Source: a bacterium
GTDB taxonomy: Bacteria > Margulisbacteria > Marinamargulisbacteria > JABIPA01
Length of the DNA: 64,000 bases
NCBI GenBank assembly: GCA_018699495.1
Contig: JABIQV010000050.1
Coordinates: 3,712 to 67,711, forward strand
Direction of reading: 5' to 3'
Shown: positions 8,090 to 49,149 of the stretch, in pieces
Layout: every line of letters starts with the position of its first letter
How positions within the stretch are numbered: the first letter of the stretch is position 1
Notes under the pieces: generated by a model
What the model was told of the DNA's origin: nothing
What the model saw: the letters and a program-made list of their open reading frames with translations, nothing else
Databases searched by the model: none
Made by a program: the position numbers and the translations under genes

Positions 8090-10828
8090 ATGAACATAGG
8101 ACCCATTCAACCATCACATCAACCATCACCGGCATCACCGGCGGGGATCTCCTCGCCATCAACACAGACAAGTCCTCCAGGATATAAACTATCATCCCCT
8201 GACAAAATAAAAGCATTAGCTCACTCATTAAAGGATCTCCAAGATCTCACAGGAAATTGGGCAACTAAAACAAAAAGTAAATTCTTTGGGAGAGGAAAAT
8301 CGTTGAAAGAGCTGGATTATAAAATCAACACTTTTGATAAAGCGATAAAGACTGAAGGCATGACGGAAGATAAAGCAATGCAGCACATTCAGATGTTGAA
8401 GAAGGATGCCGACAGATACTTAAACAGAAATAAGGGGCTTTTTGGAGGATTATTAGGTAAAGATAATGCGGTAAAAACCTTACAAACCCGATTAAATTCC
8501 TACGAAACCAATCATACGACAGCCCATGAAAAAATAGATTCCGTGGATTCGTTTTGCGATAAATTTACGCAGATAGAAGGTCAAGATAAAAATGAAGTGT
8601 TTTATCAAGTACTGGCAAAAGAGTGTGAAAATAGATTTAATGAAGGCCGATTTAATCAATCCTCTCTAGGAGGCGTTTTTGGAGATATGATGAGTATTGC
8701 AGATGCGGAGGTAATGACGTTTCTCGAACCAAAGGCGAATGAGCTCAATACACAAGGATATGACTTAATTAAAGGGAAAATAAGCCCTAAATTTAAAGCC
8801 TTCTTAGAGAGTTTTTCTAAGATAGACCCTTGTGTTAAGGAATTTGTGACTAGAACGAAAGGAACTTCCCGGATGAAAGATCGCTTAACCGTTTGTCCGG
8901 ACGGGTTCGATTTAGTGGGGGATACGGTAGAAGAAGCGAAAACAAATTTTATTCAAAAGCTTAAGGAGTCTTTTTCACCTGAATTTGATAGTTTGGATTT
9001 CAATTCTACAGATGTGTTAACAGCACAGATCAACACCTGTGTAGATAAGCAAGACCACGGGATTTCAAGTCAAAAACGTGAAGCCTTGGAGATCTGTCGG
9101 GACTTTATTAAACCCTCATCTAAACAGAAACAGCTCCGTTATACATTTGATTTAGAAGTAGATGCTTACTTACAATTTAAGAAAGGTAAGATTGGAACAG
9201 AGTCGTTAATTGAGGGCTTATCTGAGATAAAAGATATCGATCAAACAGTGGCCTTGGATTATGTGTTTGGTTATCAAGAACGGGAATATGATTATCAAGA
9301 ACATGGAATGATGGATTCATCATTTAAACCCGCTTTATTACAAGATAAAAAGTGGAAGAAGTTTACAGAGGTCTGGGGACAATTTATAGAAGGAATAAAC
9401 GATCATTCAACGATGGAGCCTTCTGTAAAAGCATATGCGACGGAACGCGCAAAAAAATACCTTGAATCGGCTAAAACAGCACGCGAAAAAGAGATAGGTA
9501 TGAGCAAACTAGAAAAAGAGCAGCAGGTAAAAGATCGAGTCTCCTTAAAAAGAGTCGAACGTTATACCGTTAAAGCACGGTTAACACGATTGGAAAGGTG
9601 TTTTCGAGGAACATCCAATTTTATTGAAAAGACCTTTTTTGCAGATCGATACGCTAAACGAAAAATCATGAAATTAAAAAATACAATTGCGGAATTTGCG
9701 CTTGGGATCGCCAAGAAGGAGAGACCCCCTCGAGCGGATGAGCTGTTAGATGCACTTGACCATATCGAGGACGAAGTAAAGCGATATGGTGAAGAAAATC
9801 CAAAGATAAAAGACTTCTTAGAAGAAGAAGGTCAGAAATTAAAAGAAGAAGTCCGTACGCTCATTGAAAAAGACGGGTATGCCATTAAGATGAGGGAGAT
9901 TACACAAGTTGGAGACAACTCTCATATCACGTTTAATAATGGGGCAGAGCTCGTAATAACGGATCAATTTGCGCAAGGAGGAGAAGGTGTCATTCATCAT
10001 GGCGTTTTGAAGCACGAGGAGAAGGAAGAACCGGTCGTGGTTAAAAAGGTTCTGTTAGGATGGCACGAATACACTATAGGCGTTGATGCGAACAATTCGC
10101 TTCGAGAAGCGATTTCAGCAGCATCGATTGCTCCCCATCCCAATATTTTGCCGATATACTCTTCGAGTATCGTACTGGAAGGTGCAGAAGGGGAAGAAAT
10201 GGATAAACTCATTTTGGTTATGCCTCAAGCAAAAGGAGACGCAGAAAGTCTAGTTAAAGACATGCATAAAGCCCCGTTGGAAGAACGATCTACCCAGGTG
10301 ATCGACTTCGCAAAGCCTGTGTTAAGGGGGCTCGCTCATATGCATCAAGAAGGGCTTGTTCATCGTGACATCAAGCCCGGAAATATTATGATTGATCTGG
10401 ATGGAAAATTACGAATTGCAGATTTCGGAATTACCTGCCGATCAGACGATACGGAGGCGTTAACCTCTCTGGAAGGATCAACGAACTATATGAGTCCAGA
10501 ACACATGACGGCCCATGAAACCAAAAAACAATATTCTAGTAAAGCAGATATTTTTGCATTAGGGGTGATGATGTTTCAGTGCGTAACCGGCGATTCTTTG
10601 TATGAGGCGGCACATCCTATGGCGGACATGAATACAGTAGAGGACTGGGGTATCAAAGCATTTCACAAAACAATTGATTTAGACACAATGAACAGGGTCA
10701 TGAAGCATCCGAAATTAGCAGGGTTAGATATGAAAACAGTTGAAGTGATCAAGCTTTGTCTAAATCCAGACCCAGCTGCTCGATATAGTGCAGACCAATT
10801 ATTAAACATATTAGATTTAACCAGATAA
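8090..10828 (+). CDS. Large protein with a C-terminal Hanks-type Ser/Thr kinase domain and ~600 aa of unassigned N-terminal sequence
   Basis: 912-aa ORF with a strong SD. Kinase motifs: QGGEGV (Gly loop), VVVKKV (Lys), HRDIKPGN, ADFG, SPE. The N-terminus is Pro/Ser-rich (PSHQPSPASPAGISSPSTQTSPPG). I saw no TM segment or PASTA repeats. Confidence 0.85.
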   Translation: MNIGPIQPSHQPSPASPAGISSPSTQTSPPGYKLSSPDKIKALAHSLKDLQDLTGNWATKTKSKFFGRGKSLKELDYKINTFDKAIKTEGMTEDKAMQHIQMLKKDADRYLNRNKGLFGGLLGKDNAVKTLQTRLNSYETNHTTAHEKIDSVDSFCDKFTQIEGQDKNEVFYQVLAKECENRFNEGRFNQSSLGGVFGDMMSIADAEVMTFLEPKANELNTQGYDLIKGKISPKFKAFLESFSKIDPCVKEFVTRTKGTSRMKDRLTVCPDGFDLVGDTVEEAKTNFIQKLKESFSPEFDSLDFNSTDVLTAQINTCVDKQDHGISSQKREALEICRDFIKPSSKQKQLRYTFDLEVDAYLQFKKGKIGTESLIEGLSEIKDIDQTVALDYVFGYQEREYDYQEHGMMDSSFKPALLQDKKWKKFTEVWGQFIEGINDHSTMEPSVKAYATERAKKYLESAKTAREKEIGMSKLEKEQQVKDRVSLKRVERYTVKARLTRLERCFRGTSNFIEKTFFADRYAKRKIMKLKNTIAEFALGIAKKERPPRADELLDALDHIEDEVKRYGEENPKIKDFLEEEGQKLKEEVRTLIEKDGYAIKMREITQVGDNSHITFNNGAELVITDQFAQGGEGVIHHGVLKHEEKEEPVVVKKVLLGWHEYTIGVDANNSLREAISAASIAPHPNILPIYSSSIVLEGAEGEEMDKLILVMPQAKGDAESLVKDMHKAPLEERSTQVIDFAKPVLRGLAHMHQEGLVHRDIKPGNIMIDLDGKLRIADFGITCRSDDTEALTSLEGSTNYMSPEHMTAHETKKQYSSKADIFALGVMMFQCVTGDSLYEAAHPMADMNTVEDWGIKAFHKTIDLDTMNRVMKHPKLAGLDMKTVEVIKLCLNPDPAARYSADQLLNILDLTR

Positions 10829-10845
10829 AAAGCCCGTATAATCGA

Positions 10846-11733
10846 TTAAATCGATTCAAATAGTTGTGCACGACCAGAATCAAGATCACGACCCATCTGT
10901 GTGCAATTGTTTAGAAACCAAGAAACAGCCGATAACTTAATAGGGGAATCATTCATATTCAATGTTTGATTCTCAACATTCACAACAACGGACGTCTTTT
11001 GGATACTATTTTTTTCAGTATACGTTAATGTGTGGACGGATAATTTTGCAGAATAGACAGTGTCAGAGTGCGTACAATATTGATTGGTTAACAAGAGCGT
11101 TTTATTTGCCGAAAGGTTTTGTTGTTTCAATATAGACCCTACGACATCAAATACTTGCTGAAGAGATTCTGTACGTTTTTCTTTTCGACGAAACGTTTTA
11201 AGAACATCCAAAATATGAGTTAAAGAATCGGCGACATGAGAATTCTTATCCGAGGGGACTGATTTCCAACATATATCGGAAATATTATCACATCGAAGGT
11301 CTTGATGATGGACATTGAGAAATTGAAGGATTCGTTCGATAGGGGGGTCGATGGTGTCTTCTAGGTTCTGAGCACCAATCATCAGACGGTGGTGGCATGT
11401 TTTTTCGATCCAGCTATTGAGTCGAAAAAATAAACGCTTTAAATCTTTAGATTGAGCGCGTTTTCCGTTGCATAGAAAAAGGGAATCTTCTAAAGAATAA
11501 TCAAAGAGAAACGTAGTATCTAGATTGGATTCTAACCACACAAAGTGTGTGTCACTAAATTGCATAGCATATAGAATCGATGTGGGTTCTATTTTGTGAG
11601 GAACACTCAATGCCTGAGAAATTTTTTGAGGAAATAATTGGTGTAGAGACGACAGCCACGATACATCATGTTTTTTTAATTGCTGCCATATTTCTTGAGT
11701 TAAAAGTTGATTAATATCAATGGAATTTTTCAT
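10846..11733 (-). CDS. Hypothetical protein (295 aa), no recognisable domain
   Basis: Long uninterrupted ORF that fills the gap between the kinase gene and the binding-protein gene. No motif recognised. Confidence 0.55.
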   Translation of the reverse strand: MKNSIDINQLLTQEIWQQLKKHDVSWLSSLHQLFPQKISQALSVPHKIEPTSILYAMQFSDTHFVWLESNLDTTFLFDYSLEDSLFLCNGKRAQSKDLKRLFFRLNSWIEKTCHHRLMIGAQNLEDTIDPPIERILQFLNVHHQDLRCDNISDICWKSVPSDKNSHVADSLTHILDVLKTFRRKEKRTESLQQVFDVVGSILKQQNLSANKTLLLTNQYCTHSDTVYSAKLSVHTLTYTEKNSIQKTSVVVNVENQTLNMNDSPIKLSAVSWFLNNCTQMGRDLDSGRAQLFESI

Positions 11734-11764
11734 ATGTAGAGAATATTATGGTATCATAAAATTT

Positions 11765-12838
11765 ATGAAAAATCGATTTATTATGATTGTTATTGCGTGC
11801 ATCATGATAGCCCATAATTCGATTGGTTCGATTGAAAATAACCAATTGCCCATTAAGATTGGAATGTCCATGGCATTATCGGGTCCGGCAGGTGATTTAG
11901 GACAGCGACTATTAAAAGGCATTCAACCCGTCATTCAACGCGTCAATCAAGAGGGCGGGGTAAAGGGACGCAAAATTCAACTGATCATAAAAGACGATCA
12001 ATATAAACCAGATCTCACGGTAAAAAATACAATTAAAATGTTAAAACATGATCAAGTGGATCTTTTTTTCTCGTTTGTTGGCACGCCAACAGTGTCCAAA
12101 GTAGCACCGTTATTTTTAAGTTATGATCGTATGCTGTTTTTTCCCTTTACAGGAGCAGAAAACCTACGCTTGTCCCCTTTAGACGGACACATTTATCACA
12201 ATAGACCGAGTTACTGGGTGGAAACGAAAACAATAGTGGATTACTTAGTTACTCAAGGTAAAAAAAAGATTGCTATTTTTTTTCAGCATGATAGTTTTGG
12301 ACAAAATGGTCGGGTTGGGGTTATCAAAACATTAAAAAAATACCAATTAGAACCCACACTATCAGTCAATTATAGGCGGAATCAATTTGATGTCGAACAA
12401 GCTCAAGAAGTAGCGGATATGATCCATGATTCGCAATCCGATGCGGTGATTTGTATTGCGAATCATTCAGCTTCTGCGAAGCTAATCAAAGCTATCCGCG
12501 AAACAAGTCGTATCCCTATTGCCAACGTATCGTTTGCGGATCCTATCGAACTCGTGTCGATGCTTATAGCCGATGACAAATCGTCAGACAAAGAACACTA
12601 TGTATCTCAATTGATACATTCGATTGTCGTTCCATATGACAAGGTTATCCAAACAATCGGACATTTTGATCCTATTAGATATGAAGGATATGCAAACACA
12701 ACATTGTTAACCCAACTATTGGATAAAATATCCTCACCAATTTCACAATGGACACCACAAGATGTGCAGAAACAGTTGAGGCCATCCGATCACTCATTTA
12801 TCATTCACTACCAAGATGGTAGTTGGAAGCCTATCTAG
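11765..12838 (+). CDS. Type-1 periplasmic binding protein (Leu/Ile/Val-binding, ANF-receptor-like), orphan with no ABC partners nearby
   Basis: Signal-like N-terminus MKNRFIMIVIACIMIAHNSIG. IKIGMSMALSGPAGDLGQ...VNQEGGVKGRKIQLIIKDDQYKPD is typical of LivK-like proteins. The tracked ORF starts at 11720; ATG 11765 gives the signal peptide. Confidence 0.8.
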   Translation: MKNRFIMIVIACIMIAHNSIGSIENNQLPIKIGMSMALSGPAGDLGQRLLKGIQPVIQRVNQEGGVKGRKIQLIIKDDQYKPDLTVKNTIKMLKHDQVDLFFSFVGTPTVSKVAPLFLSYDRMLFFPFTGAENLRLSPLDGHIYHNRPSYWVETKTIVDYLVTQGKKKIAIFFQHDSFGQNGRVGVIKTLKKYQLEPTLSVNYRRNQFDVEQAQEVADMIHDSQSDAVICIANHSASAKLIKAIRETSRIPIANVSFADPIELVSMLIADDKSSDKEHYVSQLIHSIVVPYDKVIQTIGHFDPIRYEGYANTTLLTQLLDKISSPISQWTPQDVQKQLRPSDHSFIIHYQDGSWKPI

Positions 12839-14743
12839 ATGAAAAAATCATTAGCCAAACAAATCTATTATAAGGTTTTAGTCATTTTACTGGCGTTATG
12901 CTGTCTGATTTGTACAGTAATCGGTATTTATCTCGATCGCACACTCAGTCAAGATAATATAGCCAAGGCGTCGATGCTAGCCACCACGATTGCAAATAAT
13001 TCTGCTGTGGATATGGTACGTCTGGATATTGCAGAACAGCAGGATTTGCTCAACGCTTATGCGAAAGCGGACGATATAGAGTATATTTACATATTAGATC
13101 AACATAAGGCGTTGCTACTTCATACGTTTACACCGATTCCTCCAGCAGTAATTCTCGAACAAGGGACCCTATTTAACATTAATAAAGAGCCACGAATGAT
13201 TGAGTCACTTCAAGTAATCGAAGTAAATCATCCGATATTACAAGGCGCATTAGGTTGGGTGTTTGTTGGAATGAATAAACGCGTCATTCAAAAACGTATG
13301 ATAGAGGTGATTGTCCAAATATCTGTGATATGTCTTCTATTAGGGCTGGTATCGTTATTGATCATGAAGCGTTTCATACGATCTATAACATTTCCACTAA
13401 ACGAACTCTGTCATATCACCCAAGAAAGCAGAGAAAATCAATTCAAATTAACGTCTGACCATATCCATAAACTGGAAGAATTTCAGAAAGATGGTAGTGA
13501 AATTGGCACATTAAGTAAGGAATATCACAATTTGTATACCGAACTAAAAACGTATATTAAAGAATTATCCGAGCACTTAACAGAACGAGCGACTCTTCAG
13601 AAGGAATTGGCTATTGCTCACAAGATTCAAATGAGTTTACTTATTAAAAAACCGGAAATGAATCATTCAAAGGCACTCACTTTTAGCACGTTTATTAAAA
13701 CAGCCAAGGAAGTCGGCGGCGACTTCTATGATGTGATTGAAAAGAATAAAGTCGTATTCGTTATGATAGGGGATGTGTCTGGGAAAGGCGTCTCAGCGGC
13801 ACTCTTTATGACGGCCGTTCTAACGTCTATTCGAACAGCAATCCAAGAGATGGATGATCCATCCGATATCATAACAAGCGTGAATCAACATATTAGTAAA
13901 GAAAGTTCAACGATGTTTGTTAGTGTATTTTTGGCCGCTATAGAAGTGGAAACAGGTGTAACACAATTTGTAAATGCTGGGCATTTATCCCCTATTTTAT
14001 GGAAGGATCGTCCCGAACAGCTTCCATTAACAGGGGGACAATTAATGGGCATAGATCCGTACTTCTTCTATGAATCCAAAACTGTGATATTGAAAAATAA
14101 TCATCAACTCATTTTGTTTACAGACGGCATAAATGAATCAAGTAATGAAGCAGCTGAATTCGGAGGACAGGAGAGGATCATAGGCTGTTTAGATACGCTC
14201 ACCAAAGACACGACCGAAAAAACATTAAATACGATATTAGAAACCTGCGATAATTTTGCTAGCGAGACGGAATACCATGATGATCGGACTATTGTCGTGA
14301 CCCAATTTAAAAAAACGTCAATCGAATTGCCTAATCCACTCTCTTTTTATATCGAAAATGATATCGAGGAATTAATCAAAGTACAACAGGTCGTTCAGAC
14401 AGTTTGTGACGCGTATTCTTTATCAGAAAACATGGCATATACACTTAATTTAATCATAGAAGAATTAGTGGCTAATACGATTTATCATGGATATACCCAT
14501 CATAAAAAAGAGCATATATTCATTGAGATGGATAGTCAGGACACTCAAATGGTATTGACCATCCACGATACAGGTGTTCCATTTAATCCATTATTATATG
14601 TTCCCGAGGAGACAGCTATCTCTATCCAAGATAAAAGAGCCGGTGGGTTAGGTATAAAATTAATTCAAAAACTCTGTGATTCCATAACCTATAATCGAGA
14701 AGAGGATAAGAATATTGTTCAAATAACAAAGGAGAAGGTATGA
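12839..14743 (+). CDS. Membrane sensor with fused PP2C/SpoIIE phosphatase and RsbW-like HATPase kinase domains (TM, extracytoplasmic loop, TM, HAMP-like, coiled coil, PP2C, HATPase)
   Basis: Two hydrophobic segments (about aa 11-31 and 154-176). PP2C Asp motifs GGDFYD, GDVSGKG, FTDGI, HDDRT. C-terminal N-box EELVANTIYHG and G-boxes HDTGVPF and GGLGIKL. The ATG directly follows the upstream TAG. Confidence 0.85.
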   Translation: MKKSLAKQIYYKVLVILLALCCLICTVIGIYLDRTLSQDNIAKASMLATTIANNSAVDMVRLDIAEQQDLLNAYAKADDIEYIYILDQHKALLLHTFTPIPPAVILEQGTLFNINKEPRMIESLQVIEVNHPILQGALGWVFVGMNKRVIQKRMIEVIVQISVICLLLGLVSLLIMKRFIRSITFPLNELCHITQESRENQFKLTSDHIHKLEEFQKDGSEIGTLSKEYHNLYTELKTYIKELSEHLTERATLQKELAIAHKIQMSLLIKKPEMNHSKALTFSTFIKTAKEVGGDFYDVIEKNKVVFVMIGDVSGKGVSAALFMTAVLTSIRTAIQEMDDPSDIITSVNQHISKESSTMFVSVFLAAIEVETGVTQFVNAGHLSPILWKDRPEQLPLTGGQLMGIDPYFFYESKTVILKNNHQLILFTDGINESSNEAAEFGGQERIIGCLDTLTKDTTEKTLNTILETCDNFASETEYHDDRTIVVTQFKKTSIELPNPLSFYIENDIEELIKVQQVVQTVCDAYSLSENMAYTLNLIIEELVANTIYHGYTHHKKEHIFIEMDSQDTQMVLTIHDTGVPFNPLLYVPEETAISIQDKRAGGLGIKLIQKLCDSITYNREEDKNIVQITKEKV

Positions 14744-21461: not shown

Positions 21462-22664
21462 ATGAGTATAGACGATAAGAAACACAACTATTACAGCACT
21501 CGAAAAATAACTTTAGAAAGAGTTAAATTAATTCTAAGGCATGCCTATTCCCTTCAAGAAGAAGCTCCAAAAACAGAGTTGTCGTTTAGTTCTATTTTTT
21601 TGTCATGTGTACGGCCATTAAACGATCTCGATGCCCAAACGATGATGAGTAAAGAAGAACAGTTAAACGAGATGAAATTTCTTCTTGAAGAGCTAAAAGA
21701 AAATCTTACAAAAAAGAATTTATTAAATGAAGATATTGTTTGGCCAAAAATAGAATCTGTGAAAACACGAACTCAAATGGCTGAGATGGTTTTTAGACTA
21801 TGTGAAAAAGATACATCGGGAAAAATATTTTTAGCTTTTTCAGATATTTTTCTTAAAAAGGTATTTTTGGACGTTCTGAAAAGAGATTGGTCCATGATTT
21901 CTTCTGAAGCAACGAATCGAGGTTCTGTCGGGGAGCAATTCAGAGGACGAAATATAGAGTTGGACAATATTCCCAACTTAGACGAATTGGACCAAGGTTT
22001 TTTTAATCCTAATAGTTGGACTCTCCCAGAAGATGTGGAAAGTATATGTAAGCAAAAATCCTTGAAAGATCTTGGTAGTCAGTTGAGAGAATTGAACAAA
22101 AAACAAATGGAAAATGTGGAAAGTTTTATAGGTGAAAAACTTGTACAAGTAAGGGCATCGTTTTTTGAAAAAGAAAAGTCAAAAGTAGTAGATCCTGAAG
22201 CATTTGAACTTACGTATAAAACGAAACCAAAAGTGAATTTATTAGTTCCATCATGGCATATCGATTCTTTTTCAAATAATCCAAGATTACATAGTTTAGA
22301 AAAGCCTGTTTATGTAGTCTCTTATTTTGATAAAAAAGACGAAGAGGGGACCGAATATGTAAGACTCCCTTATTTTAATATGGGTTTAGATAATATCGAT
22401 GCAACGTTGAGGGTTCGAGCGATTATTGAATCTTTTTTAAGAGATCCAGGTAACGAGAGTTTAATTGAACCTTATATTCATCAAACTCAATCGGAAGTCG
22501 TGTCTAAAAATTTACCTTATGCTTTTTATCATCGAAGTCCCGTTCAAAAAGATGATCCAGTAGAGAGAACGTGTTTGGTATATGCCACGGAAAATGGAGA
22601 CAGTCACCATCCGTTTATAGGAGCGAATATAGATGGATTTATTTATAAAGAACTTGGGCGTTAA
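21462..22664 (+). CDS. Hypothetical protein (400 aa)
   Basis: Long ORF with no competing frame. No motif recognised. Confidence 0.55.
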   Translation: MSIDDKKHNYYSTRKITLERVKLILRHAYSLQEEAPKTELSFSSIFLSCVRPLNDLDAQTMMSKEEQLNEMKFLLEELKENLTKKNLLNEDIVWPKIESVKTRTQMAEMVFRLCEKDTSGKIFLAFSDIFLKKVFLDVLKRDWSMISSEATNRGSVGEQFRGRNIELDNIPNLDELDQGFFNPNSWTLPEDVESICKQKSLKDLGSQLRELNKKQMENVESFIGEKLVQVRASFFEKEKSKVVDPEAFELTYKTKPKVNLLVPSWHIDSFSNNPRLHSLEKPVYVVSYFDKKDEEGTEYVRLPYFNMGLDNIDATLRVRAIIESFLRDPGNESLIEPYIHQTQSEVVSKNLPYAFYHRSPVQKDDPVERTCLVYATENGDSHHPFIGANIDGFIYKELGR

Positions 22665-22914
22665 AAATTTTAGTTTGAAAGTCTAAGTTATTTATTTCAA
22701 TTAATTTGCTAGGCATCAAAATTTTGTCATATTCTCAAATTAAATATACATCTCTACACCATAATCATTAAAATTCAAATAACATTTCAAAACAAAATTT
22801 TAAAACCAAGCAATTTTCATGATATCATTCAAAAAAATGAAAGGTCTTCGTCAAAAAAGGCAAAGATCGTTGTAAGTCAAAATGGTTCAAATTCAAACAT
22901 TTACCCATTTAGTT

Positions 22915-23010
22915 TTACAAGAGGGAAATTGAGTGAAAACCTCAGCTGTCCAGCAACCGTAGAGTGGTGACTATTAAAAAAATAGGTAAAACGCAGTCGG
23001 AATGCCTCCG
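22915..23010 (+). promoter_or_regulatory. Cobalamin (B12) riboswitch
   Basis: AGAGGGAAAUUGAGUGAAAACCUCAGCUGUCCAGCAACCGUAGAG matches the conserved core (GGGAA...GGUGAAA.CC...GC.G.CC.GCAAC.GUA). A variable hairpin follows, then a B12-box-like GCAGUCGGAAUGCC. It lies directly 5' of a TonB-dependent receptor gene. Confidence 0.7.
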
Positions 23011-25071
23011 TTTTTTATAAGGGGTCTATACCCCAAAAATACTCGATCATCTAGGAAAGTGACGTGTACAATTAATAAACTAATAATTGAAAGAAATCCT
23101 TTTATATGGGTTTGTTTTATTTTAATCATTTTAATATTTTTGATATCCAATTCTGTTGTGGCAGAGGACGATTCTTCAAAATACCCTCAACGAATATATA
23201 TCAGAAATAAGATATCAATTGGGGATGGAACGACATCATCCAAAAAAAAATATGGTTCCAAGCAAATTCTAACAGACGATATCCCCTTGATTATCAAACC
23301 AAGAAAAAAGACAGAATATTCAACTTACTCAGAGTTTTCAAAAACAGTTTCCGATCATCACAAAGTAAATAAGTCTGTAGAATCGATAGTGAAATGGGCT
23401 CCAAGTGTCGTGTTAACAGAATTTGGAGCTGAGGGGCAGTCAAATGTTGTACAAATCCGGGGATCGTCAGCATCTCAAGTTCCAGTGTTTTTTGATGGAT
23501 TTTCTATGTCAGGGTTTTCTGGACGTACAGATTTAACACTTTTTGATACAGAGTCTTTGGAAACAATTGATGTTGTTCGAGGAATGACATCTTCAATTTA
23601 TGGACCAGGTGCTTTGGGTGGCGTTATTTCTTTACGGTCGGTAAGCCCTAAAAATATTGAGTCGGTACTTCGGATAGGTTCTTTTTCTTCTCATTCATTA
23701 AGTGTTTTGACTCCTATCAATGAAATTGGGGCAAGTCTATTTTTAAAACGGGCGTACGCAAAAAATGACTATGTGTATTTAAATGATAGAGGAACCCAGT
23801 TCGAGGAGGGGGACGACTATTTTGATACTAGAAAAAATAGCGATGTTTTATCAGAGTCATTGTTTTTCAAAATGGAACTATTGAAAGCATTCAAAGTGAG
23901 TTTGAAATTGAATCGTTTTGATAAAGGGAGTGCTGGGACAATTACTAACCCTTCGTTTGAGGCAAGAGAAGTCGGGACAAGCTTTTTTTCTTCTCTCAGT
24001 TATTCTCAAAATCACTTAAATTTGACATCATTTTATTCAGGAAATGAAAAAACGTTTTCTGATCCTTTAGGAGAATTTAATGGAGCTGCTTATTCGGTTA
24101 CACATGTGGATAGGAAAGGCGGCGTTAAGTTTGCCTCCGATTCATTATTTGGTGTAAATACGATCAACTATTCCCTTGGCACGATTCGAGAGTTTTTAGA
24201 AAGAGGGGACGGGTTAACGTCTATATACAGAAATCAATATGACGCTACGGTTGAGTGGAACCCACGGCCCTTTTTTTCTGGGGTATACTCAAATTTTTCT
24301 GCTCAGTTGGGTAAGGTGTCGGACAGTGCCCCCTTAGCCGCAATTCATTTTTCAAATCGATTTATTAAAAAAGGATTCCCATTCATTTTTCGTGTATCTG
24401 TAGGAACAGGTTATAGATTCCCTAGTTTATCTGAAAAATATGACCGGTTTGGATTCTTATACCCAAATCCAGATTTGAAACCAGAAAATGGAATCGAAAC
24501 AGAAGCTTCTGTAACTTACTCTACGAAACGTTTCAGAATGGATGCCATCGTGTTTTATAGAGATATGACAGATTTGATTGAATTCGATTTCGCCTCGAGC
24601 TTCATGATGAAGTTTAAGAATATAGGAAAATCTCAGATAAAGGGTCTCGAGATTATTGCAGCTGGAAATAATTTTGGATTTGATTGGGAATCTCAACTTA
24701 CTGTAACTGAAGGAATTGATAAAACAGACAATTCGGCAAGATATGATAATAAATTATTGATTCCTAAATACGTTGCTTTAACAAAAATATCAAAAAAATT
24801 AACGGAGTCATTGACTGTATACGGAGAATCTTATTTTGAAGATCGCGGACATTTGGATAAACAAACATCCGTAGATATCGATGATAAATCCGTCGTATCT
24901 GTCGGAGGATCGTTCAAGATAGGGACTTCTTTTTTTAAAGAATACGTTGTGCCAAAATCAACGTCTGTTGAATTCAAGGTGAGTAATATATTTGATGCGT
25001 TAAATCAAGATAGATTTGGATTCCCACTTCCCGGAAGAAAATGGGAGGTAGGGTTGATAACTAAATTATAG
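23002..25071 (+). CDS. btuB: TonB-dependent outer-membrane receptor, probably the cobalamin transporter
   Basis: Signal peptide ...LIFLISNSVVA. Plug motifs VQIRGSSASQVPVFFDG and GALGGVISL. C-terminal beta-barrel ending in an aromatic-rich strand. B12 specificity is inferred from the upstream riboswitch. The start is uncertain (ATG 23002 inside the riboswitch, or GTG 23059). Confidence 0.8.
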   Translation: MPPFFIRGLYPKNTRSSRKVTCTINKLIIERNPFIWVCFILIILIFLISNSVVAEDDSSKYPQRIYIRNKISIGDGTTSSKKKYGSKQILTDDIPLIIKPRKKTEYSTYSEFSKTVSDHHKVNKSVESIVKWAPSVVLTEFGAEGQSNVVQIRGSSASQVPVFFDGFSMSGFSGRTDLTLFDTESLETIDVVRGMTSSIYGPGALGGVISLRSVSPKNIESVLRIGSFSSHSLSVLTPINEIGASLFLKRAYAKNDYVYLNDRGTQFEEGDDYFDTRKNSDVLSESLFFKMELLKAFKVSLKLNRFDKGSAGTITNPSFEAREVGTSFFSSLSYSQNHLNLTSFYSGNEKTFSDPLGEFNGAAYSVTHVDRKGGVKFASDSLFGVNTINYSLGTIREFLERGDGLTSIYRNQYDATVEWNPRPFFSGVYSNFSAQLGKVSDSAPLAAIHFSNRFIKKGFPFIFRVSVGTGYRFPSLSEKYDRFGFLYPNPDLKPENGIETEASVTYSTKRFRMDAIVFYRDMTDLIEFDFASSFMMKFKNIGKSQIKGLEIIAAGNNFGFDWESQLTVTEGIDKTDNSARYDNKLLIPKYVALTKISKKLTESLTVYGESYFEDRGHLDKQTSVDIDDKSVVSVGGSFKIGTSFFKEYVVPKSTSVEFKVSNIFDALNQDRFGFPLPGRKWEVGLITKL

Positions 25072-25114: not shown

Positions 25115-26278
25115 ATGAAACTAAAAAATGAAATACTAAGAAAATGTACGACAAGTGTACTCTCAATTGCAATAGCATTATCAATTACGGGCTGTTCTCA
25201 GCTAATCGATTTACTTGAAAATGACGACGATATTGAAAATCCGTCCTCGGAAACGGAAACAGTTAACGCATACGTAATCGGTGCTCCTTGGGGAATGGGC
25301 GAAACACCTAACGGTTATGTTGGCACGTTATCAACGTCATCCACCGGAGATAGTGTTGTTAATAAAACGTATTTTGAAATTTCAAAGACGGCAAATAAAG
25401 CAAAATTAGACGATGATTTTTTGTATGTTCTACATTCAGGAAGTAATTCGTTATATAGGATTGATACACAAGCAACAGACGAAGAAAATAGGTCAAAAGA
25501 ACTGTCTTTAGGTACTAACTTAAGTCCGTGGGGTTTTGTAATTAACAACGAAACCGCATATATCACAAATAATACGGCTCATTCAGTTACTGAAGTATCC
25601 TTATCAGGAGATATGTCAGTTGTACGTACCTTCGATTTGCCATCGGGATCAGATTTAACGCCTCCTGAAGGTGAAGTTACCTATGCTTATCCTCAAGATA
25701 TCGAAATTATTGATAATAAACTTTATGTTGCTTTGACCAATCAAAATAGCAGCAGGTTCCCCGTAGGACCTGGAAAATTAGCAATAATTGACTTGGACAC
25801 AAATGAAACAAGTTTACTCGACCTTACGTACTCGAACCCTGCATCCTTTGCTTATTCTGATTTATATCCAACATTGTTATTTGTAATTGAAACAGGAACC
25901 GTATGGCCCGCTGATAATTTGGCAAAATTGGAAGTAATAGACACAGAGACAAACGAAATTATTACAGAAGAAATGATTGAATCGGATTCGTCTGTTATAG
26001 AAATTGGGCCTGAAGGAACTATATATGTAGCTTCCGGTTATGGACGTGTCGATTTGTATAAATATACATTTGAAAATAATTTACTTTCATCATCGGATAT
26101 TTTTAATATCGATAGTTTTGGAAATCCAACAGATATAGAAATAGATGACGAAGGAACTATATATGTGTCTGATTCGTCAAACCATAAAGTATTTGTTAAG
26201 CGTCAATCGGAGTCAGCTTTTTCTTCCTATATAGTAAATGATGCTCCCATGGATATCGTATTGACTACTATTGATTAA
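25115..26278 (+). CDS. Lipoprotein with predicted beta-propeller repeats (YncE/NHL-like)
   Basis: Lipobox LSITGCS. Repeated motifs of the type P.DIEI.D..LYV / GTIYVSDSSNHKVFV. Lies 43 nt downstream of btuB on the same strand. Confidence 0.7.
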   Translation: MKLKNEILRKCTTSVLSIAIALSITGCSQLIDLLENDDDIENPSSETETVNAYVIGAPWGMGETPNGYVGTLSTSSTGDSVVNKTYFEISKTANKAKLDDDFLYVLHSGSNSLYRIDTQATDEENRSKELSLGTNLSPWGFVINNETAYITNNTAHSVTEVSLSGDMSVVRTFDLPSGSDLTPPEGEVTYAYPQDIEIIDNKLYVALTNQNSSRFPVGPGKLAIIDLDTNETSLLDLTYSNPASFAYSDLYPTLLFVIETGTVWPADNLAKLEVIDTETNEIITEEMIESDSSVIEIGPEGTIYVASGYGRVDLYKYTFENNLLSSSDIFNIDSFGNPTDIEIDDEGTIYVSDSSNHKVFVKRQSESAFSSYIVNDAPMDIVLTTID

Positions 26279-27713
26279 CAAAAAGCTCTTGGAAACAAAG
26301 AAACGTTGTCATGTATTAAATTTTTTAGAAGGTGACTTAACACTTTCTGAGTTTTTGGAGGCATGTAATGAATCGGCTTCTGACGTCTATTTTGGTCCAG
26401 ACAATCAGAATAACTGGATGCCAAGTAATAAAACGAAGGCAATAGGCAAAAAAAATGAAATATGGATTTTAAGTTTAGATTCCGATTGTAGACAGTTTTC
26501 TTTTTTTCTACCGATTCTTTGTTTAACTCAATTAGGGTGTCAAGTAAGAGAAGTAAAAATGGACCCTGATAATTTGGAAACGTTTGGAAAGTTGATGGAA
26601 GCCGGTTGTGAAAATATTTTTGCAATAATCTTAAATCCTTTTTTTAGAGCTGATGTATCCATTTTAGGAAAGGTCCAAACTATTTGCAGTATTTTAAATA
26701 TGGTTCCTTCGTTAATTATTGGAGGCCCTAGTATTAGGACTTGTGATGTCGAAAAGCACTTTTCAAATTACAACGGGACTATTTATTTTTGTAGCCAAAG
26801 TTTAAAGGCCGTTAAGATGATTGATGATAAATTTGAAGGTCATAACCCGATGGTATTTGGTCCAAACTCGCTAAATGTAGAAGGTCAATCAGAAATAGGT
26901 CAGCCTATCAAAACGATTGAACCGAATTTTAAAGGGATTAAACCAGAAAAGTATAAAATCGAAGTAAAAACCTGTTGGCCATTAATCAACGATAAATCGT
27001 TGTATCAAATGCATTTGAAATATAGAGGCAACTTTTTAAATGATTTAAAAAATAATGTCGAAAAAGCGGTAGACTTAACGGAAAAAGTAGGCAAGGTAAA
27101 ACAACTAATAGAGTCAAAAAAATTGATATCAGTAGAAGGCTATTCATTGATTCTTGATGTAACGTCAAAAAAGAATTCCATTTTTTTGAAAGACGGAAAA
27201 GATCCCTTTTTAACGTTTCCACGGCAACAGAATACTCCAAATAAATGTTTATCTGACTATATTGATAACGATCATTCAAAGATGGGTATTTTCGTGGTCA
27301 GTTCTGGAAAAACGTGGATAGAGGCAGCACGTCAATTTTTAATAGAGAAAAAATACACGGAGTTTATGATTTTACAGGCTTTAGTAATGCAAACGGCAGA
27401 AGCTGGGGCGGAATTTATTCACGATGAATTAAATCGTAGACAAGAACGACCATCAGAAAGTGATAGTGCATCAAAAAAAGCAACAAAAAAGGAAAGGACG
27501 CTCCTCGATGAGGCATATGTATCGTCGGTTCAAGGAAAAAGATATAGTCCAGGGTACAGTGCGTGTCCTGATTTACAGCTTCAAGTTCCATTGTTTTCAT
27601 TGTTTAAAGGTGTGACAACGATTACGTTAACAGAAAGCCTTATGATGAATCCCATTAACTCGGTGTCTGGATTCGTTTTTTTTAAACCTGGGTGCGACTA
27701 TTTTTCAATATAA
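26271..27713 (+). CDS. Stand-alone C-terminal half of methionine synthase: cobalamin-binding-like Rossmann domain plus AdoMet reactivation domain
   Basis: EIWILSLDSDCRQF...LGCQVREV...PSLIIGGPS is collinear with the MetH B12-binding domain, but DxHxxG reads DSDCRQ. The C-terminus KRYSPGYSACPDL...ITLTESLMMNPINSVSGFVFF..GCDYFSI matches the MetH activation domain. TTG start overlaps the upstream stop by 8 nt; the start is uncertain. Confidence 0.7.
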   Translation: MINKKLLETKKRCHVLNFLEGDLTLSEFLEACNESASDVYFGPDNQNNWMPSNKTKAIGKKNEIWILSLDSDCRQFSFFLPILCLTQLGCQVREVKMDPDNLETFGKLMEAGCENIFAIILNPFFRADVSILGKVQTICSILNMVPSLIIGGPSIRTCDVEKHFSNYNGTIYFCSQSLKAVKMIDDKFEGHNPMVFGPNSLNVEGQSEIGQPIKTIEPNFKGIKPEKYKIEVKTCWPLINDKSLYQMHLKYRGNFLNDLKNNVEKAVDLTEKVGKVKQLIESKKLISVEGYSLILDVTSKKNSIFLKDGKDPFLTFPRQQNTPNKCLSDYIDNDHSKMGIFVVSSGKTWIEAARQFLIEKKYTEFMILQALVMQTAEAGAEFIHDELNRRQERPSESDSASKKATKKERTLLDEAYVSSVQGKRYSPGYSACPDLQLQVPLFSLFKGVTTITLTESLMMNPINSVSGFVFFKPGCDYFSI

Positions 27714-27924: not shown

Positions 27925-28419
27925 ATGGCTGACTATTCTTTCGATATCGTTTCAAAGGTTGATACCCAAGAAATCGTTAATGCGGTTAATCAAGCGTCTA
28001 AAGAGCTAGGGCATCGGTATGATTTAAAAAACTCCGATTCTACAATCGAATTTAAAGAAAAAGATAACGTGATTCATTTGGCTTCGCAGTCCGACTTTAC
28101 TCTTAAAGCCGTTCGAGATATTTTATACCAAAAATTAATTAAAAGAGATGTTTCTTTAAAGTCATTCGAAGAAGAAACGATAAGTAAAGCAACGGGGGAC
28201 ACGGTTAGACAAGATTTAAAGGTTATTCAGGGAATACCTCAAGATAAAGCTAAAACGATTGTTGCTGATATTAAAAAGTCTAAATTAAAAGTTCAGATTG
28301 CTATTCAGGGAGATCAAATTCGTGTATCTGCAAAGAAAAAAGACGAATTGCAATCAGTTATCCAAGAAGTTAAGACAAAAAATTATCCGTTCTTTGTAGG
28401 GTTTACTAACTATAGATAG
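27925..28419 (+). CDS. yajQ: YajQ family (UPF0234) nucleotide / cyclic-di-GMP-binding protein
   Basis: MADYSFDIVSKVD.QE..NAV.QA.KE...RYD.K, and the C-terminal KKSKLKVQIAIQGDQIRVS..KKDELQ, are collinear with E. coli YajQ. Strong SD aaggag. Confidence 0.9.
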   Translation: MADYSFDIVSKVDTQEIVNAVNQASKELGHRYDLKNSDSTIEFKEKDNVIHLASQSDFTLKAVRDILYQKLIKRDVSLKSFEEETISKATGDTVRQDLKVIQGIPQDKAKTIVADIKKSKLKVQIAIQGDQIRVSAKKKDELQSVIQEVKTKNYPFFVGFTNYR

Positions 28420-48603: not shown

Positions 48604-49149
48604 ATGATGAATACTAAATTAGTTAAACGAATTTTATTTGGCCTTACTTTAACTTTAGCCGTGGTATTGGCGCGATTAATACCACACGCACCTAATTTCA
48701 CACCTTTGTTAGCAATGACAATATTTTGTGCCGTTAGTGTAGAGGATAAAAAATGGGGATTATTAATGCCTTTAATAGCGATGGGAATAAGTGATATTTT
48801 CTTAGGCTGGCATGCTTCAATGATTTTTGTTTATGGCGCTATTATTTTAGTAGGTGTACTAAGTATATTTCTTTGTAAAAGCCAGAAAATATCATCGGTT
48901 GCTATGGCAACGTTGATCAGTCCATTGGTTTTTTATGGGGTGACTAATTTTGGAGTTTGGGCTGTCACATCGATGTATTCTAAAACATTTATTGGGTTAT
49001 ATATGTCATATATTGCGGGGCTTCCTTTTTTGAAAGTATCAATGAGTAGCACGGTCTTGTTTTCCTGTATTTTATTCGTACCATTTTTTATGCTAAAGCA
49101 GTCGAACATCAGAGAAAAATTATCTGAACGGTTTGTTTTAATTCGCTAA
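48604..49149 (+). CDS. Small polytopic membrane protein (about 5 TM)
   Basis: 181 aa, hydrophobic throughout. The RLIPHAPNFTPL N-terminal motif recalls an uncharacterised membrane-protein family. Function unknown. Confidence 0.6.
   Translation: MMNTKLVKRILFGLTLTLAVVLARLIPHAPNFTPLLAMTIFCAVSVEDKKWGLLMPLIAMGISDIFLGWHASMIFVYGAIILVGVLSIFLCKSQKISSVAMATLISPLVFYGVTNFGVWAVTSMYSKTFIGLYMSYIAGLPFLKVSMSSTVLFSCILFVPFFMLKQSNIREKLSERFVLIR

What the first reader, a model, noticed from the sequence alone, without database searches (positions are those of the whole stretch)
26271..27713. Stand-alone half-MetH (B12-binding fold without the His ligand, plus reactivation domain) as the last gene of the B12 uptake operon
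The C-terminal ~130 aa match the MetH AdoMet/reactivation domain closely (YSPGYSACPDL, LTESLMMNPINSVSGFVFF). The middle matches the Rossmann cobalamin-binding domain, but the DxHxxG His-on motif reads DSDCRQ. No homocysteine or folate barrels are present. The placement behind a B12 riboswitch, with btuB, implies expression when B12 is scarce. Inference: it acts as a cytosolic corrinoid receiver, chaperone or reductive-methylation module, not a methionine synthase. I am not aware of a described role for such a protein in uptake loci.
Basis: partly seen in the sequence, partly recalled or inferred. Interest (0 to 1): 0.65.

Follow-up and report, generated by a model that had tools for sequence, protein, structure and literature searches.

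The report
MetH-derived B12-handling protein in uptake operon
The last gene of a vitamin-B12 uptake operon encodes the cofactor-holding and repair half of methionine synthase without its catalytic half and without the usual histidine ligand. It belongs to a small, undescribed family that always sits beside B12 importers, so it is a candidate bacterial cytoplasmic B12 receiver or activator.

Summary
ORF 26271-27713 (480 aa) has a complete MetH activation (AdoMet) domain covering about 240 aa, not 130. In front of it lies a very divergent MetH-type B12 Rossmann domain. No Pfam hit supports that domain; a homology chain through relatives and an AlphaFold/Foldseek match to MetH Cob+Act fragments do. 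DxHxxG reads D72-C73-R74-Q-F-S77, so His is replaced by Arg. SxL is also lost and GG is kept. There is no cap, homocysteine barrel or folate barrel.

The gene overlaps the stop of a BtuG-like beta-propeller lipoprotein gene. That gene follows a BtuB-like TonB-dependent receptor and a sub-threshold AdoCbl-II-type riboswitch.

Relatives at 22-34% identity form a clade apart from true MetH in an unsupported NJ tree. The two loci whose record or protein name gives a taxon are Marinamargulisbacteria. In every locus examined the gene lies directly behind a TonB receptor (sometimes with the lipoprotein between) or beside BtuFCD-like genes. Five further loci show cobalamin-riboswitch hits. Most relatives keep GDxH; His was apparently lost twice.

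Best reading: a cytoplasmic post-uptake corrinoid acceptor and reductive-methylation module held in the His-off state. This is inferred, not shown. A trans-acting MetH reactivase is the main rival. I could not check whether the genome has MetH.

The parts
22907..23015 (+). Cobalamin riboswitch-like element (AdoCbl-II / class II type) in the 5' leader of the operon. Its conserved 3' box GGAATGCC contains the first ATG of the receptor ORF.
   Evidence: RF01689 scores 26.1 bits (gathering score 36.5), E 0.012, over the full model. The conserved cores GGGAAAT..GTG.AA..CC..CTGTCCAGCA.CCGT and AGTCGGAATGCC are shared with equivalent elements in L002, L005 and L013, with compensatory changes.
23002..25071 (+). 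BtuB-like TonB-dependent outer-membrane receptor. The true start may lie downstream of 23002.
   Evidence: Plug and TonB_dep_Rec_b-barrel domains. The best PDB relative is E. coli BtuB, E 1.2e-20 over residues 123-682; other receptors reach only 3e-7 and only on the plug. The best NCBIfam hit is TonB-B12, far below its equivalog cut-off.
25115..26278 (+). Beta-propeller lipoprotein (lipobox ITGC), BtuG-like.
   Evidence: NHL repeat hit. A profile of four homologues hits B. thetaiotaomicron BtuG1, BtuG2 and BtuG3 chains (8blw_B 2.4e-7, 8bmx_D 1.7e-5, 3dsm 4.5e-5, 8okv_B 5.6e-4). Those PDB codes are confirmed as BtuG in PMC10404256. Homologues occupy the same operon position in L001, L011/L012 and L008.
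26271..27713 (+). Cap-less Cob:Act 'half-MetH' gene of 480 aa. Its TTG start overlaps the lipoprotein stop by 8 nt.
   Evidence: The orthologue has ATG at the homologous overlapping position.
26271..26456 (+). N-terminal helical pair (residues ~4-34), conserved in the family, followed by a clade-specific insertion (residues ~36-62). This is not a four-helix cap.
   Evidence: AF2 secondary structure, family alignment, and no PF02607 hit.
26457..26840 (+). Divergent MetH-type B12-binding Rossmann domain (residues 63-190).
   Evidence: hhalign chain, beta-alpha pattern in the AF2 model, and the Foldseek match to MetH Cob+Act fragments. Identity to the orthologue is 71%, equal to the Act core.
26481..26501 (+). 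S-D-C-R-Q-F-S, the counterpart of G-D-x-H-x-x-G. The cobalt-ligating His is replaced by Arg74.
   Evidence: The loop with its flanks (residues 63-88) is 88% identical to the orthologue.
26958..27710 (+). MetH activation (AdoMet-binding / reactivation) domain, residues ~230-480.
   Evidence: PF02965 at 103 bits. PDB sequence hits 1msk, 6bdy, 1k7y and 3bul.
27540..27557 (+). R-Y-S-P-G-Y, the RxxxGY AdoMet/cobalamin-face motif. Y429 corresponds to E. coli Tyr1139.
   Evidence: Aligned with E. coli RPAPGY. G422, R424, G428 and Y429 are invariant in both alignments. Coordinates verified by translation.

Best explanation
The gene encodes a cytoplasmic two-domain protein descended from the C-terminal half of methionine synthase. 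A B12-type Rossmann domain has no cap, and the AdoMet (activation) domain sits over it. This is the arrangement MetH adopts only during cofactor loading and reductive reactivation.

The gene is co-transcribed with a BtuB-like outer-membrane receptor and a BtuG-like lipoprotein. A cobalamin riboswitch precedes the operon, so the protein should be made when B12 is scarce.

The most likely role is a post-uptake corrinoid acceptor and activator. In this model it takes up imported corrinoid in the Rossmann pocket under the Act domain. After one-electron reduction by a flavodoxin- or ferredoxin-type donor, it methylates the cobalt with AdoMet. It then holds or hands on methylcobalamin.

In this clade Arg replaces the His ligand. 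Any bound cofactor would therefore stay His-off, the state that favours Co(II) to Co(I) reduction and excludes catalytic turnover.

Shown here: the domain anatomy, the family, the conserved operon context and the riboswitch-like leader. Inferred: corrinoid binding by this variant, the methylation chemistry and the hand-off.
For: Anatomy:
- The Act domain is complete.
- The whole-length AF2 model matches MetH Cob+Act fragments in the reactivation conformation.
- The Rossmann domain is homologous to MetH B12 domains through intermediates.
- RxxxGY and the universally conserved Tyr are intact.

Conserved context:
- At 22-34% identity the gene still directly follows a TonB receptor in L002, L005, L007, L009/L010, L013/L014, L015 and L017.
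- It follows receptor plus lipoprotein in the window, L001 and L011, and lies beside BtuFCD-like genes in L016.
- Cobalamin-clan riboswitch hits lie upstream of the receptor in the window and five other loci.

The protein itself probably binds corrinoid:
- Most family members keep GDxH, T/S-x-L and GG.
- Known stand-alone reactivators such as TM0269 are Act-only (1j6r).

His is dispensable for the family's job:
- It was lost apparently twice, as SDCR here and GNTQ in P0091.
- The Rossmann domain nevertheless stays as conserved as the Act core, 71% against 71%, and the ligand loop is 88% identical.

Published MetH work fits:
- Apo-MetH and its Cap:Cob:Act fragment sit in the Act-on state with a preformed, open pocket, and they load cobalamin His-off and base-off (PMC10567725).
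- H759G is constitutively His-off, adopts the reactivation conformation and binds flavodoxin strongly (PMC10293825).
- Reductive methylation first gives five-coordinate His-off MeCbl (PMC12272874).

The N-terminus is hydrophilic, without an evident signal peptide, and AdoMet is cytoplasmic.
Against: - There is no biochemical evidence of any kind.
- In this clade three of the four B12-signature elements are changed: His to Arg, Gly to Ser, and SxL to I-x-N. PF02310 does not hit, so corrinoid binding may have been lost.
- No reductase gene is linked in any locus.
- A full-length MetH can already load and methylate its own cofactor, so the need for a separate module is unexplained.
- The AF2 model was built from an alignment rich in MetH sequences, which biases it towards the MetH arrangement.
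- The gene content of the rest of the genome is unknown.
Confidence: 0.42

Rival explanations
1. It is a trans-acting reactivation factor. The Act domain repairs oxidised cob(II)alamin on a separate core MetH, or another corrinoid methyltransferase, that lacks its own activation domain. The degenerate Rossmann domain serves only as scaffold or docking surface. Co-expression with uptake genes would keep scarce cofactor active during B12 limitation.
For: Separate activation proteins are known: TM0269 (1j6r), and the statement that PF02965 'can be a separate protein' (PMC5764234). The family also occurs split into a 146-aa Rossmann protein plus a 248-aa Act protein, and stand-alone Act proteins fall in the same clade. 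In the window's clade the B12 signature is largely eroded.
Against: Most family members keep a full GDxH...T/SxL...GG signature, which a pure trans-reactivator does not need. None of the loci examined carries a metH core nearby; all are uptake loci. The Rossmann domain is under constraint as strong as the Act core.
Confidence: 0.25
2. It is a cytoplasmic corrinoid store or sink without chemistry. The Rossmann domain binds B12 and the Act domain acts only as a lid. This lowers free B12, keeps the riboswitch on and pulls uptake forward, which amounts to hoarding.
For: The operon context is conserved and the predicted regulation switches it on under B12 scarcity. In MetH the conserved Tyr of the Act domain caps the upper face of the bound cofactor (PMC10567725).
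Against: The AdoMet-site motifs (RxxxGY, FPRQ, QTAEA, and the C-terminal P473/Y477/F478 in P..YF) remain invariant or nearly so across a family that is only 22-34% identical. That argues for retained AdoMet chemistry rather than a passive lid.
Confidence: 0.1
3. It is a pseudo-enzyme. This His-less clade has lost corrinoid binding and acquired another role, such as a regulatory or protein-binding function, or a function on AdoMet alone.
For: There is no PF02310 hit and no direct profile similarity to MetH B12 domains. DxHxxG and SxL are both changed, and clade-specific insertions occur at residues 36-62 and 391-419.
Against: The operon position is unchanged relative to the His-containing relatives. 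The segments that form the cofactor loops in MetH are the most conserved parts of the domain between the two orthologues, at 77-88%. Rossmann-type domains of B12-dependent radical SAM enzymes and the corrinoid iron-sulfur protein bind cobalamin without His (general knowledge; not tested here).
Confidence: 0.1
4. It is simply the C-terminal half of a split methionine synthase that works catalytically with a separately encoded Hcy+folate half.
For: Split and fragmented MetH genes exist: P0059 behind S-methyl_trans and Pterin_bind ORFs, and the three-part MetH of Phaeobacter (PMC5764234). The rest of this genome could not be searched.
Against: Careful alignment does not restore a His ligand. A constitutively His-off MetH (H759G) sits in the reactivation conformation rather than the turnover states (PMC10293825). 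There is no cap domain. No N-half gene is present in any family locus, and the family forms a clade apart from MetH. Repression by B12, as predicted from the riboswitch, would be the wrong sign for a B12-dependent synthase.
Confidence: 0.05

Closest known systems
C-terminal half of cobalamin-dependent methionine synthase MetH (Cap:Cob:Act; E. coli 649-1227 H759G in 1K7Y/1K98, 3BUL/3IVA; T. thermophilus 8SSD/8SSE)
   Same: It has the same two core domains in the same order, and the predicted mutual arrangement matches (Foldseek E 1e-18 to 9e-20, TMq 0.63-0.69). RxxxGY and the capping Tyr are kept. Like the engineered H759G fragment, it has no His ligand and should be fixed in the activation-type state.
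   Different: It is a natural stand-alone protein with no four-helix cap and no Hcy or folate half. It is only 16-17% identical over the structural alignments. SxL is lost. It is encoded in a B12 uptake operon rather than as part of metH.
Stand-alone MetH reactivation protein TM0269 of Thermotoga maritima (PDB 1J6R)
   Same: The activation-domain fold exists as a separate polypeptide (Foldseek E 5.8e-6). This is a precedent for reactivation working outside the MetH chain.
   Different: TM0269 is Act-only (~200 aa) and, from general knowledge, lies next to the core metH gene. The protein here carries a Rossmann B12-type domain and lies next to btuB.
Human B12 trafficking chaperones MMACHC/MMADHC, which process cobalamin and load it onto MTR
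   Same: The proposed logic is the same: a cytoplasmic protein receives incoming cobalamin after transport, processes it and loads it. MMADHC's role in loading MTR is described in PMC12272874 and PMC13376404.
   Different: There is no sequence or fold relationship. The analogy is functional and hypothetical.
Bacteroides BtuB-BtuG(-BtuH) corrinoid uptake loci
   Same: The layout is riboswitch, then TonB-dependent BtuB, then a surface beta-propeller lipoprotein. The lipoprotein profile hits BtuG1-3.
   Different: The searches turned up no report of a MetH-derived cytoplasmic gene in those loci. The lineage here is different; the two named relatives are Marinamargulisbacteria. Conservation of BtuG's B12-binding residues was not tested.
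RamA / DUF4445 ATP-dependent reductive activators of corrinoid proteins
   Same: They serve the same general purpose, returning Co(II) corrinoid to the active methylated or Co(I) state, and act as separate proteins (PMC5764234).
   Different: The fold and mechanism are unrelated (ATP-driven, Fe-S). No such domain is present here.

Membership tests
Cobalamin-dependent methionine synthase MetH (EC 2.1.1.13) | Homocysteine-binding barrel (PF02574) | tested here: not met
   No hit at E <= 0.1. The protein is only 480 aa.
Cobalamin-dependent methionine synthase MetH (EC 2.1.1.13) | Methyltetrahydrofolate (pterin)-binding barrel (PF00809) | tested here: not met
   No hit.
Cobalamin-dependent methionine synthase MetH (EC 2.1.1.13) | Four-helix cap (B12-binding_2, PF02607) | tested here: not met
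   No hit. The AF2 model shows only two short helices and a hairpin before strand 1.
Cobalamin-dependent methionine synthase MetH (EC 2.1.1.13) | His ligand in DxHxxG (E. coli His759) | tested here: not met
   The motif is D72-C73-R74-Q-F-S77. The only His in residues 63-190 is H163, outside this loop and not conserved in the orthologue.
Cobalamin-dependent methionine synthase MetH (EC 2.1.1.13) | Methionine synthase activity | not testable with these tools
   Needs an enzyme assay.
Met_synt_B12 activation domain (PF02965) | Score above the Pfam gathering cut-off over most of the model | tested here: met
   103.1 bits against a cut-off of 25, model positions 18-257 of 273.
Met_synt_B12 activation domain (PF02965) | RxxxGY motif with the conserved capping Tyr (E. 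coli Tyr1139) | tested here: met
   R424-Y-S-P-G428-Y429 aligns with E. coli RPAPGY. G422, R424, G428 and Y429 are invariant in the 58- and 13-sequence alignments.
Met_synt_B12 activation domain (PF02965) | AdoMet binding and methyl transfer to cob(I)alamin | not testable with these tools
   Needs ITC or UV-vis assays.
B12-binding Rossmann domain (PF02310, MetH type) | Pfam hit at the gathering cut-off | tested here: not met
   No PF02310 hit even at E <= 10 for residues 1-245. Relatives P0003, P0077 and P0083 do hit, at least weakly.
B12-binding Rossmann domain (PF02310, MetH type) | Homology to MetH B12 domains | tested here: met
   Direct hhalign fails. The transitive chain holds: 94.6% probability, E 6.9e-8 to the family, and the family to MetH at 99.6%, E 5.5e-24. 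The fold agrees.
B12-binding Rossmann domain (PF02310, MetH type) | Signature DxHxxG ... SxL ... GG | tested here: not met
   Only Asp and GG are kept. His becomes Arg, Gly becomes Ser, and SxL becomes I-x-N.
B12-binding Rossmann domain (PF02310, MetH type) | Corrinoid binding | not testable with these tools
   Needs spectroscopy on purified protein.
Cobalamin riboswitch (Rfam clan CL00101) | Score at or above the family gathering score | tested here: not met
   There is no hit at gathering level. RF01689 scores 26.1 bits against 36.5, E 0.012 in an 8-kb search.
Cobalamin riboswitch (Rfam clan CL00101) | Conserved core and helices, position in the 5' leader of a B12 transport gene, recurrence in orthologous loci | tested here: met
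   The full model is matched in the leader of the receptor gene. Clan hits lie in the same place in L002, L005, L007, L011 and L013, at E 3e-5 to 1.3e-3. The cores are shared and pairs change in a compensatory way.
BtuB (TonB-dependent B12 receptor) | Plug plus 22-strand barrel, with BtuB as the closest characterised relative | tested here: met
   (BtuB 1.2e-20 over the full length; the next receptor 3e-7, plug only).
BtuB (TonB-dependent B12 receptor) | NCBIfam equivalog cut-off (TIGR01779 / NF007926) | tested here: not met
   103 bits against a cut-off of 600, and 89 bits against 836. TonB-B12 is the best family but far below its cut-off.
BtuG surface lipoprotein | Lipoprotein beta-propeller encoded next to btuB and related to BtuG | tested here: inconclusive
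   The lipobox, the adjacency and the profile hits to BtuG1-3 are present. However, the hits cover only some blades, and generic NHL/YncE propellers score as well or better. The AF2 single-sequence model was unusable (pLDDT 43).

The most novel reading that the evidence does not exclude
This family would be a bacterial cytoplasmic B12 trafficking enzyme, a MetH-derived counterpart in function to human MMACHC/MMADHC. It would receive corrinoids as they emerge from the uptake pathway and convert them by reductive methylation with AdoMet to methylcobalamin. It would then deliver the cofactor to client enzymes. The His-less variants (Arg74 here, Gln in P0091) would hold five-coordinate, His-off methylcobalamin ready for hand-off. 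The conserved neighbouring Cys73 could conceivably act as a transient thiolate ligand, as in BtuM and MMADHC, but this is untested.
Probability: 0.3. Interest if true: 0.8.

Novelty: new variant of a known kind. Interest (0 to 1): 0.62.

Why it matters
How bacteria handle B12 between the inner-membrane transporter and the enzymes that use it is largely unknown. In humans a dedicated chaperone chain does this job. A protein that keeps only the cofactor-loading and repair half of methionine synthase, and is inherited together with the B12 import genes, is a concrete candidate for that missing step.

It is directly testable: express it, then test corrinoid and AdoMet binding, MeCbl formation, and transfer to apo-MetH.

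The natural His-to-Arg and His-to-Gln variants are evolutionary counterparts of the H759G mutant used to trap MetH in its activation state. They could therefore be useful for studying that state.

The finding also suggests that BtuB-BtuG-type surface capture systems may exist outside Bacteroidota.

The case is limited to uncultured aquatic lineages, and it rests on gene context and homology only.

Tried and rejected
1. Direct detection of the B12 domain failed. Pfam at E <= 10 on residues 1-245 gave nothing relevant. hhalign of the two-sequence N-terminal profile against MetH B12 domains gave 0.3% probability. Homology was established only through intermediate relatives.

2. Rfam at gathering threshold found no riboswitch in the window. 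The element appears only at the E-value threshold.

3. A second word-indexed protein search with the family profile returned mostly MetH fragments and few family members. The exhaustive representative search was what revealed the family.

5. The window's other ORFs were scanned for MetH core, MetE, BtuCDF and B12 enzymes. None was found.

6. I asked whether DUF6580 (48604-49149) is a BtuM-like transporter. It has no NCBIfam or PDB sequence hit and no riboswitch in its 50-nt leader, so the idea was dropped.

8. I asked whether Arg74 could salt-bridge the Act-domain residues that receive His759 in MetH (Glu1069 and Asp1093; PMC10293825). In the alignment the aligned positions are W349 and M373, so nothing supports this.

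9. Terminator after the gene: neither the pattern scan nor the inverted-repeat search found one. 'Last gene of the operon' rests on relatives, where the next gene is on the opposite strand or differs.

10. Literature searches for this arrangement found no description. The Margulisbacteria papers do not mention B12 or TonB, and mention methionine only within a figure-legend abbreviation.

11. RNAalifold on four leaders recovered only part of the Rfam structure, because MAFFT misaligned the GGGAAA core by one base.


Full report
**What is at 26271-27713**

The ORF is real. It runs on the + strand, starts at TTG and encodes 480 aa. It is 100% identical over 474 aa to NCBI MBT6120380.1, 'hypothetical protein HOH45_02820 [bacterium]', on a 69.8-kb MAG contig. 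A MAG named SI072_bin107 carries an orthologue with 65% identity.

The start codon overlaps the stop of the upstream gene by 8 nt. The orthologue has ATG at the homologous position, which supports this start and suggests translational coupling. GC content is uniform across the region at 0.31-0.36.

**Domains**

Pfam finds only PF02965, the MetH activation domain. It scores 103 bits against a cut-off of 25 over residues 245-480, which is model positions 18-257 of 273. The RxxxGY motif (R424-Y429) and the C-terminal D-Y-F-S-I align with E. coli MetH. Y429 corresponds to Tyr1139, the universally conserved residue that caps the cofactor and tunes the Co(II)/Co(I) potential (PMC10567725).

Residues 1-245 have no relevant Pfam hit, even at E <= 10. 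A two-sequence profile of this region shows no significant similarity to MetH B12 domains.
- BLASTP against a relative that does carry PF02310 (P0003) aligns residues 130-480 at 31% identity.
- A profile of the relatives' N-termini links the two sides. Window N-terminus against the family gives 94.6% probability, E 6.9e-8, over residues 14-186. The family against MetH B12 domains gives 99.6%, E 5.5e-24.
- An AlphaFold2 model (pLDDT 83.4, pTM 0.81) shows a beta-alpha Rossmann pattern at residues 63-185. Over its whole length it best matches MetH Cob+Act fragments: 8sse at E 9e-20 and TMq 0.69, and also 3iva, 1k7y and 3bul. The model's alignment was rich in MetH sequences, so this last point is not fully independent.

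In the correct register, DxHxxG corresponds to D72-C73-R74-Q75-F76-S77. His is replaced by Arg and Gly by Ser. SxL reads I-x-N, and GG is kept. The only His in the domain, H163, lies far from this loop and is not conserved in the orthologue. There is no Hcy barrel, folate barrel or four-helix cap. Before strand 1 there are only two short helices and a clade-specific hairpin.

**Surroundings**

- *Leader (22907-23015).* This stretch matches the full AdoCbl-II riboswitch model at 26.1 bits, below the gathering score of 36.5, with E 0.012. Nothing reaches gathering level.
- *Receptor (23002-25071).* This is a TonB-dependent receptor whose best solved relative is E. coli BtuB, at 1.2e-20 over the full length. 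Other receptors reach only 3e-7, on the plug alone. Its best NCBIfam family is TonB-B12, far below the equivalog cut-off.
- *Lipoprotein (25115-26278).* This is a beta-propeller lipoprotein. A four-sequence profile hits B. thetaiotaomicron BtuG1, BtuG2 and BtuG3. Generic propellers score as well, so I call it BtuG-like only.
- *Downstream.* A 211-nt AT-rich gap follows, then yajQ. No terminator was detected.
- *Rest of the window.* It holds no MetH core, MetE, BtuCDF or B12-dependent enzyme.

**A family, not a one-off**

An exhaustive profile search of 1.84 billion cluster representatives found a set of 390-470 aa proteins with one architecture: a short N-terminal helical pair, a Rossmann domain, a linker and an Act domain. 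It also found ~250-aa Act-only relatives. In an NJ tree of the Act domain, without support values, these form one clade apart from full-length MetH and MetH fragments.

Two relatives are named as Candidatus Marinamargulisbacteria (L005; P0091 = RAP32245.1). Every 90%-identity cluster I looked up has only 1-5 members.

The gene context is strikingly constant at 22-34% identity.
- The gene directly follows, and often overlaps, a TonB-dependent receptor in L002, L005, L007, L009/L010, L013/L014, L015 and L017.
- It follows receptor plus a homologous lipoprotein in the window, L001 and L011/L012. L008 is cut at the lipoprotein.
- In L016 it lies beside BtuF/BtuC/BtuD-like genes.
- In L017, and probably L005, the two domains are separate, translationally coupled genes in the same position.
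- Cobalamin-clan riboswitch hits lie just upstream of the receptor in L002, L005, L007, L011 and L013, at E 3e-5 to 1.3e-3. All are slightly below gathering scores, and L009 gave none. The leaders share the conserved cores and show compensatory changes.

By contrast, a canonical B12+Act hit (P0059, GDVHDIGKN) lies behind S-methyl_trans and Pterin_bind ORFs, so it is a broken or split metH.

**State of the His ligand in the family**

Most members keep G-D-x-H, T/S-x-L and GG, so the family as a whole looks like a genuine corrinoid binder. The window protein and its orthologue have S-D-C-R. P0091 has G-N-T-Q. P0094, which groups with them, keeps G-D-V-H.

His therefore seems to have been lost twice, with different replacements. 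Yet the window's Rossmann domain is as conserved against its orthologue as the Act core, at 71% each. The segments that form the cofactor loops in MetH are 77-88% identical. This pattern suits a job that needs the pocket but not His ligation.

**Mechanism**

Published MetH work shows four relevant points.
- Apo-MetH and its Cap:Cob:Act fragment rest in the Act-on (reactivation) arrangement with a preformed, solvent-open pocket.
- They load cobalamin His-off and base-off, with the conserved Tyr as lid (PMC10567725).
- H759G is constitutively His-off, adopts the reactivation conformation and binds flavodoxin strongly (PMC10293825).
- Reductive methylation first yields five-coordinate His-off MeCbl. 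Re-binding of His is what returns the enzyme to turnover (PMC12272874).

A cap-less Cob:Act protein is thus hard-wired for loading and reductive methylation, and a His-less one cannot leave that state.

Combined with the conserved uptake-operon context and the predicted induction under B12 scarcity, I consider a cytoplasmic post-uptake corrinoid acceptor and AdoMet-dependent activator the most likely function (confidence about 0.4). The N-terminus is hydrophilic without an evident signal peptide. The anatomy, family and context are shown here. Corrinoid binding by this variant, the chemistry and any hand-off are inferred.

**Rivals**

- *Trans-acting reactivase for an Act-less MetH (0.25).* This fits the precedents of separate activation proteins and the eroded signature here. 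It does not explain why most relatives keep a full B12 signature, or why no metH gene is ever adjacent.
- *Passive store or sink (0.1).* This is disfavoured by the strict conservation of the AdoMet-site motifs.
- *Pseudo-enzyme that no longer binds B12 (0.1).* This is possible for this clade.
- *Catalytic half of a split MetH (0.05).* This is unlikely. There is no His after proper alignment, no cap, no partner in any locus, a separate clade, and regulation of the wrong sign. It cannot be excluded without the rest of the genome.

**Novelty**

Both domains are well known, and stand-alone activation proteins are known too. The new elements are a distinct, cap-less Cob:Act family fixed as the terminal gene of riboswitch-controlled btuB(-btuG-like) operons, and natural His-less variants within it.

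I found no description of this in four targeted literature searches. Where the sources name these proteins at all, they call them hypothetical or auto-annotate them as methionine synthase; most carry no name.

I rate it a new variant of a known kind. Interest is moderate to high because it offers a testable candidate for the unknown cytoplasmic step of bacterial B12 handling.

Noticed in passing
window 25115-26278; L001 1685-2848; L011 6865-7995; L008 47-1189: A conserved ~380-aa beta-propeller lipoprotein lies between the BtuB-like receptor and the half-MetH gene. Its profile hits Bacteroides BtuG1, BtuG2 and BtuG3 structures. This suggests BtuG-type surface capture of B12 outside Bacteroidota, although generic NHL/YncE propellers score similarly.
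   Followed up: partly
L017 7564-8004 and 8001-8747; L005 5413-5889 and 5693-6583: In some relatives the family is split into a ~146-158-aa Rossmann protein (GDSH or GDTH kept) and a ~250-aa activation-domain protein. The genes overlap and sit behind the same TonB receptor. In L005 a frameshift cannot be excluded.
   Followed up: partly
window 22995-23005: The first ATG of the receptor ORF (23002) lies inside the riboswitch's conserved 3' box GGAATGCC. In L005 an in-frame ATG inside the annotated receptor ORF lies in the same box. This hints at translational control by sequestering the start codon. The true receptor start was not determined.
   Followed up: no
P0026-P0033, P0038 (816-aa proteins): There is a group of MetH-like proteins with pterin-binding, cap, B12 and activation domains but no homocysteine-binding domain. 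They also carry a PF03599 (CdhD) hit. They may be another split or variant methyltransferase architecture.
   Followed up: no
L018 4239-7395: A canonical B12+Act ORF (P0059, Anaerolineae MAG) lies behind three short ORFs carrying S-methyl_trans and Pterin_bind. This is a fragmented or frameshifted metH. A second S-methyl_trans+MTHFR gene lies at 10488-12365.
   Followed up: no
window 21462-22664: A 400-aa ORF directly upstream of the riboswitch leader has no Pfam or NCBIfam match.
   Followed up: no
window 48604-49149: A small protein of family DUF6580 (181 aa). I considered it as a possible BtuM-like inner-membrane B12 carrier, but no NCBIfam or PDB sequence match was found and its 50-nt leader has no riboswitch.
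   Followed up: partly
window 8090-14743: This is a cluster of a 912-aa Ser/Thr protein kinase, an unannotated 295-aa ORF on the opposite strand, a periplasmic-binding-protein-like gene, and a SpoIIE phosphatase fused to an HATPase_c_2 anti-sigma-type kinase. A second SpoIIE phosphatase lies at 50164-51186.
   Followed up: no
window 1-609: An ORF at the window edge matches the C-terminal domain of eukaryote-type lipase maturation factor (LMF1_C, E 1.8e-46). This seems an unusual family to find in a bacterium.
   Followed up: no
window 27925-28419; L009 1880-2377: A yajQ (DUF520) gene lies just downstream of the operon here and near the operon in a distant relative. L002, L005 and L009 also share nearby Mg-chelatase-like genes, and L002 and L009 share ATP synthase genes. 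This residual synteny suggests the loci come from related lineages.
   Followed up: no
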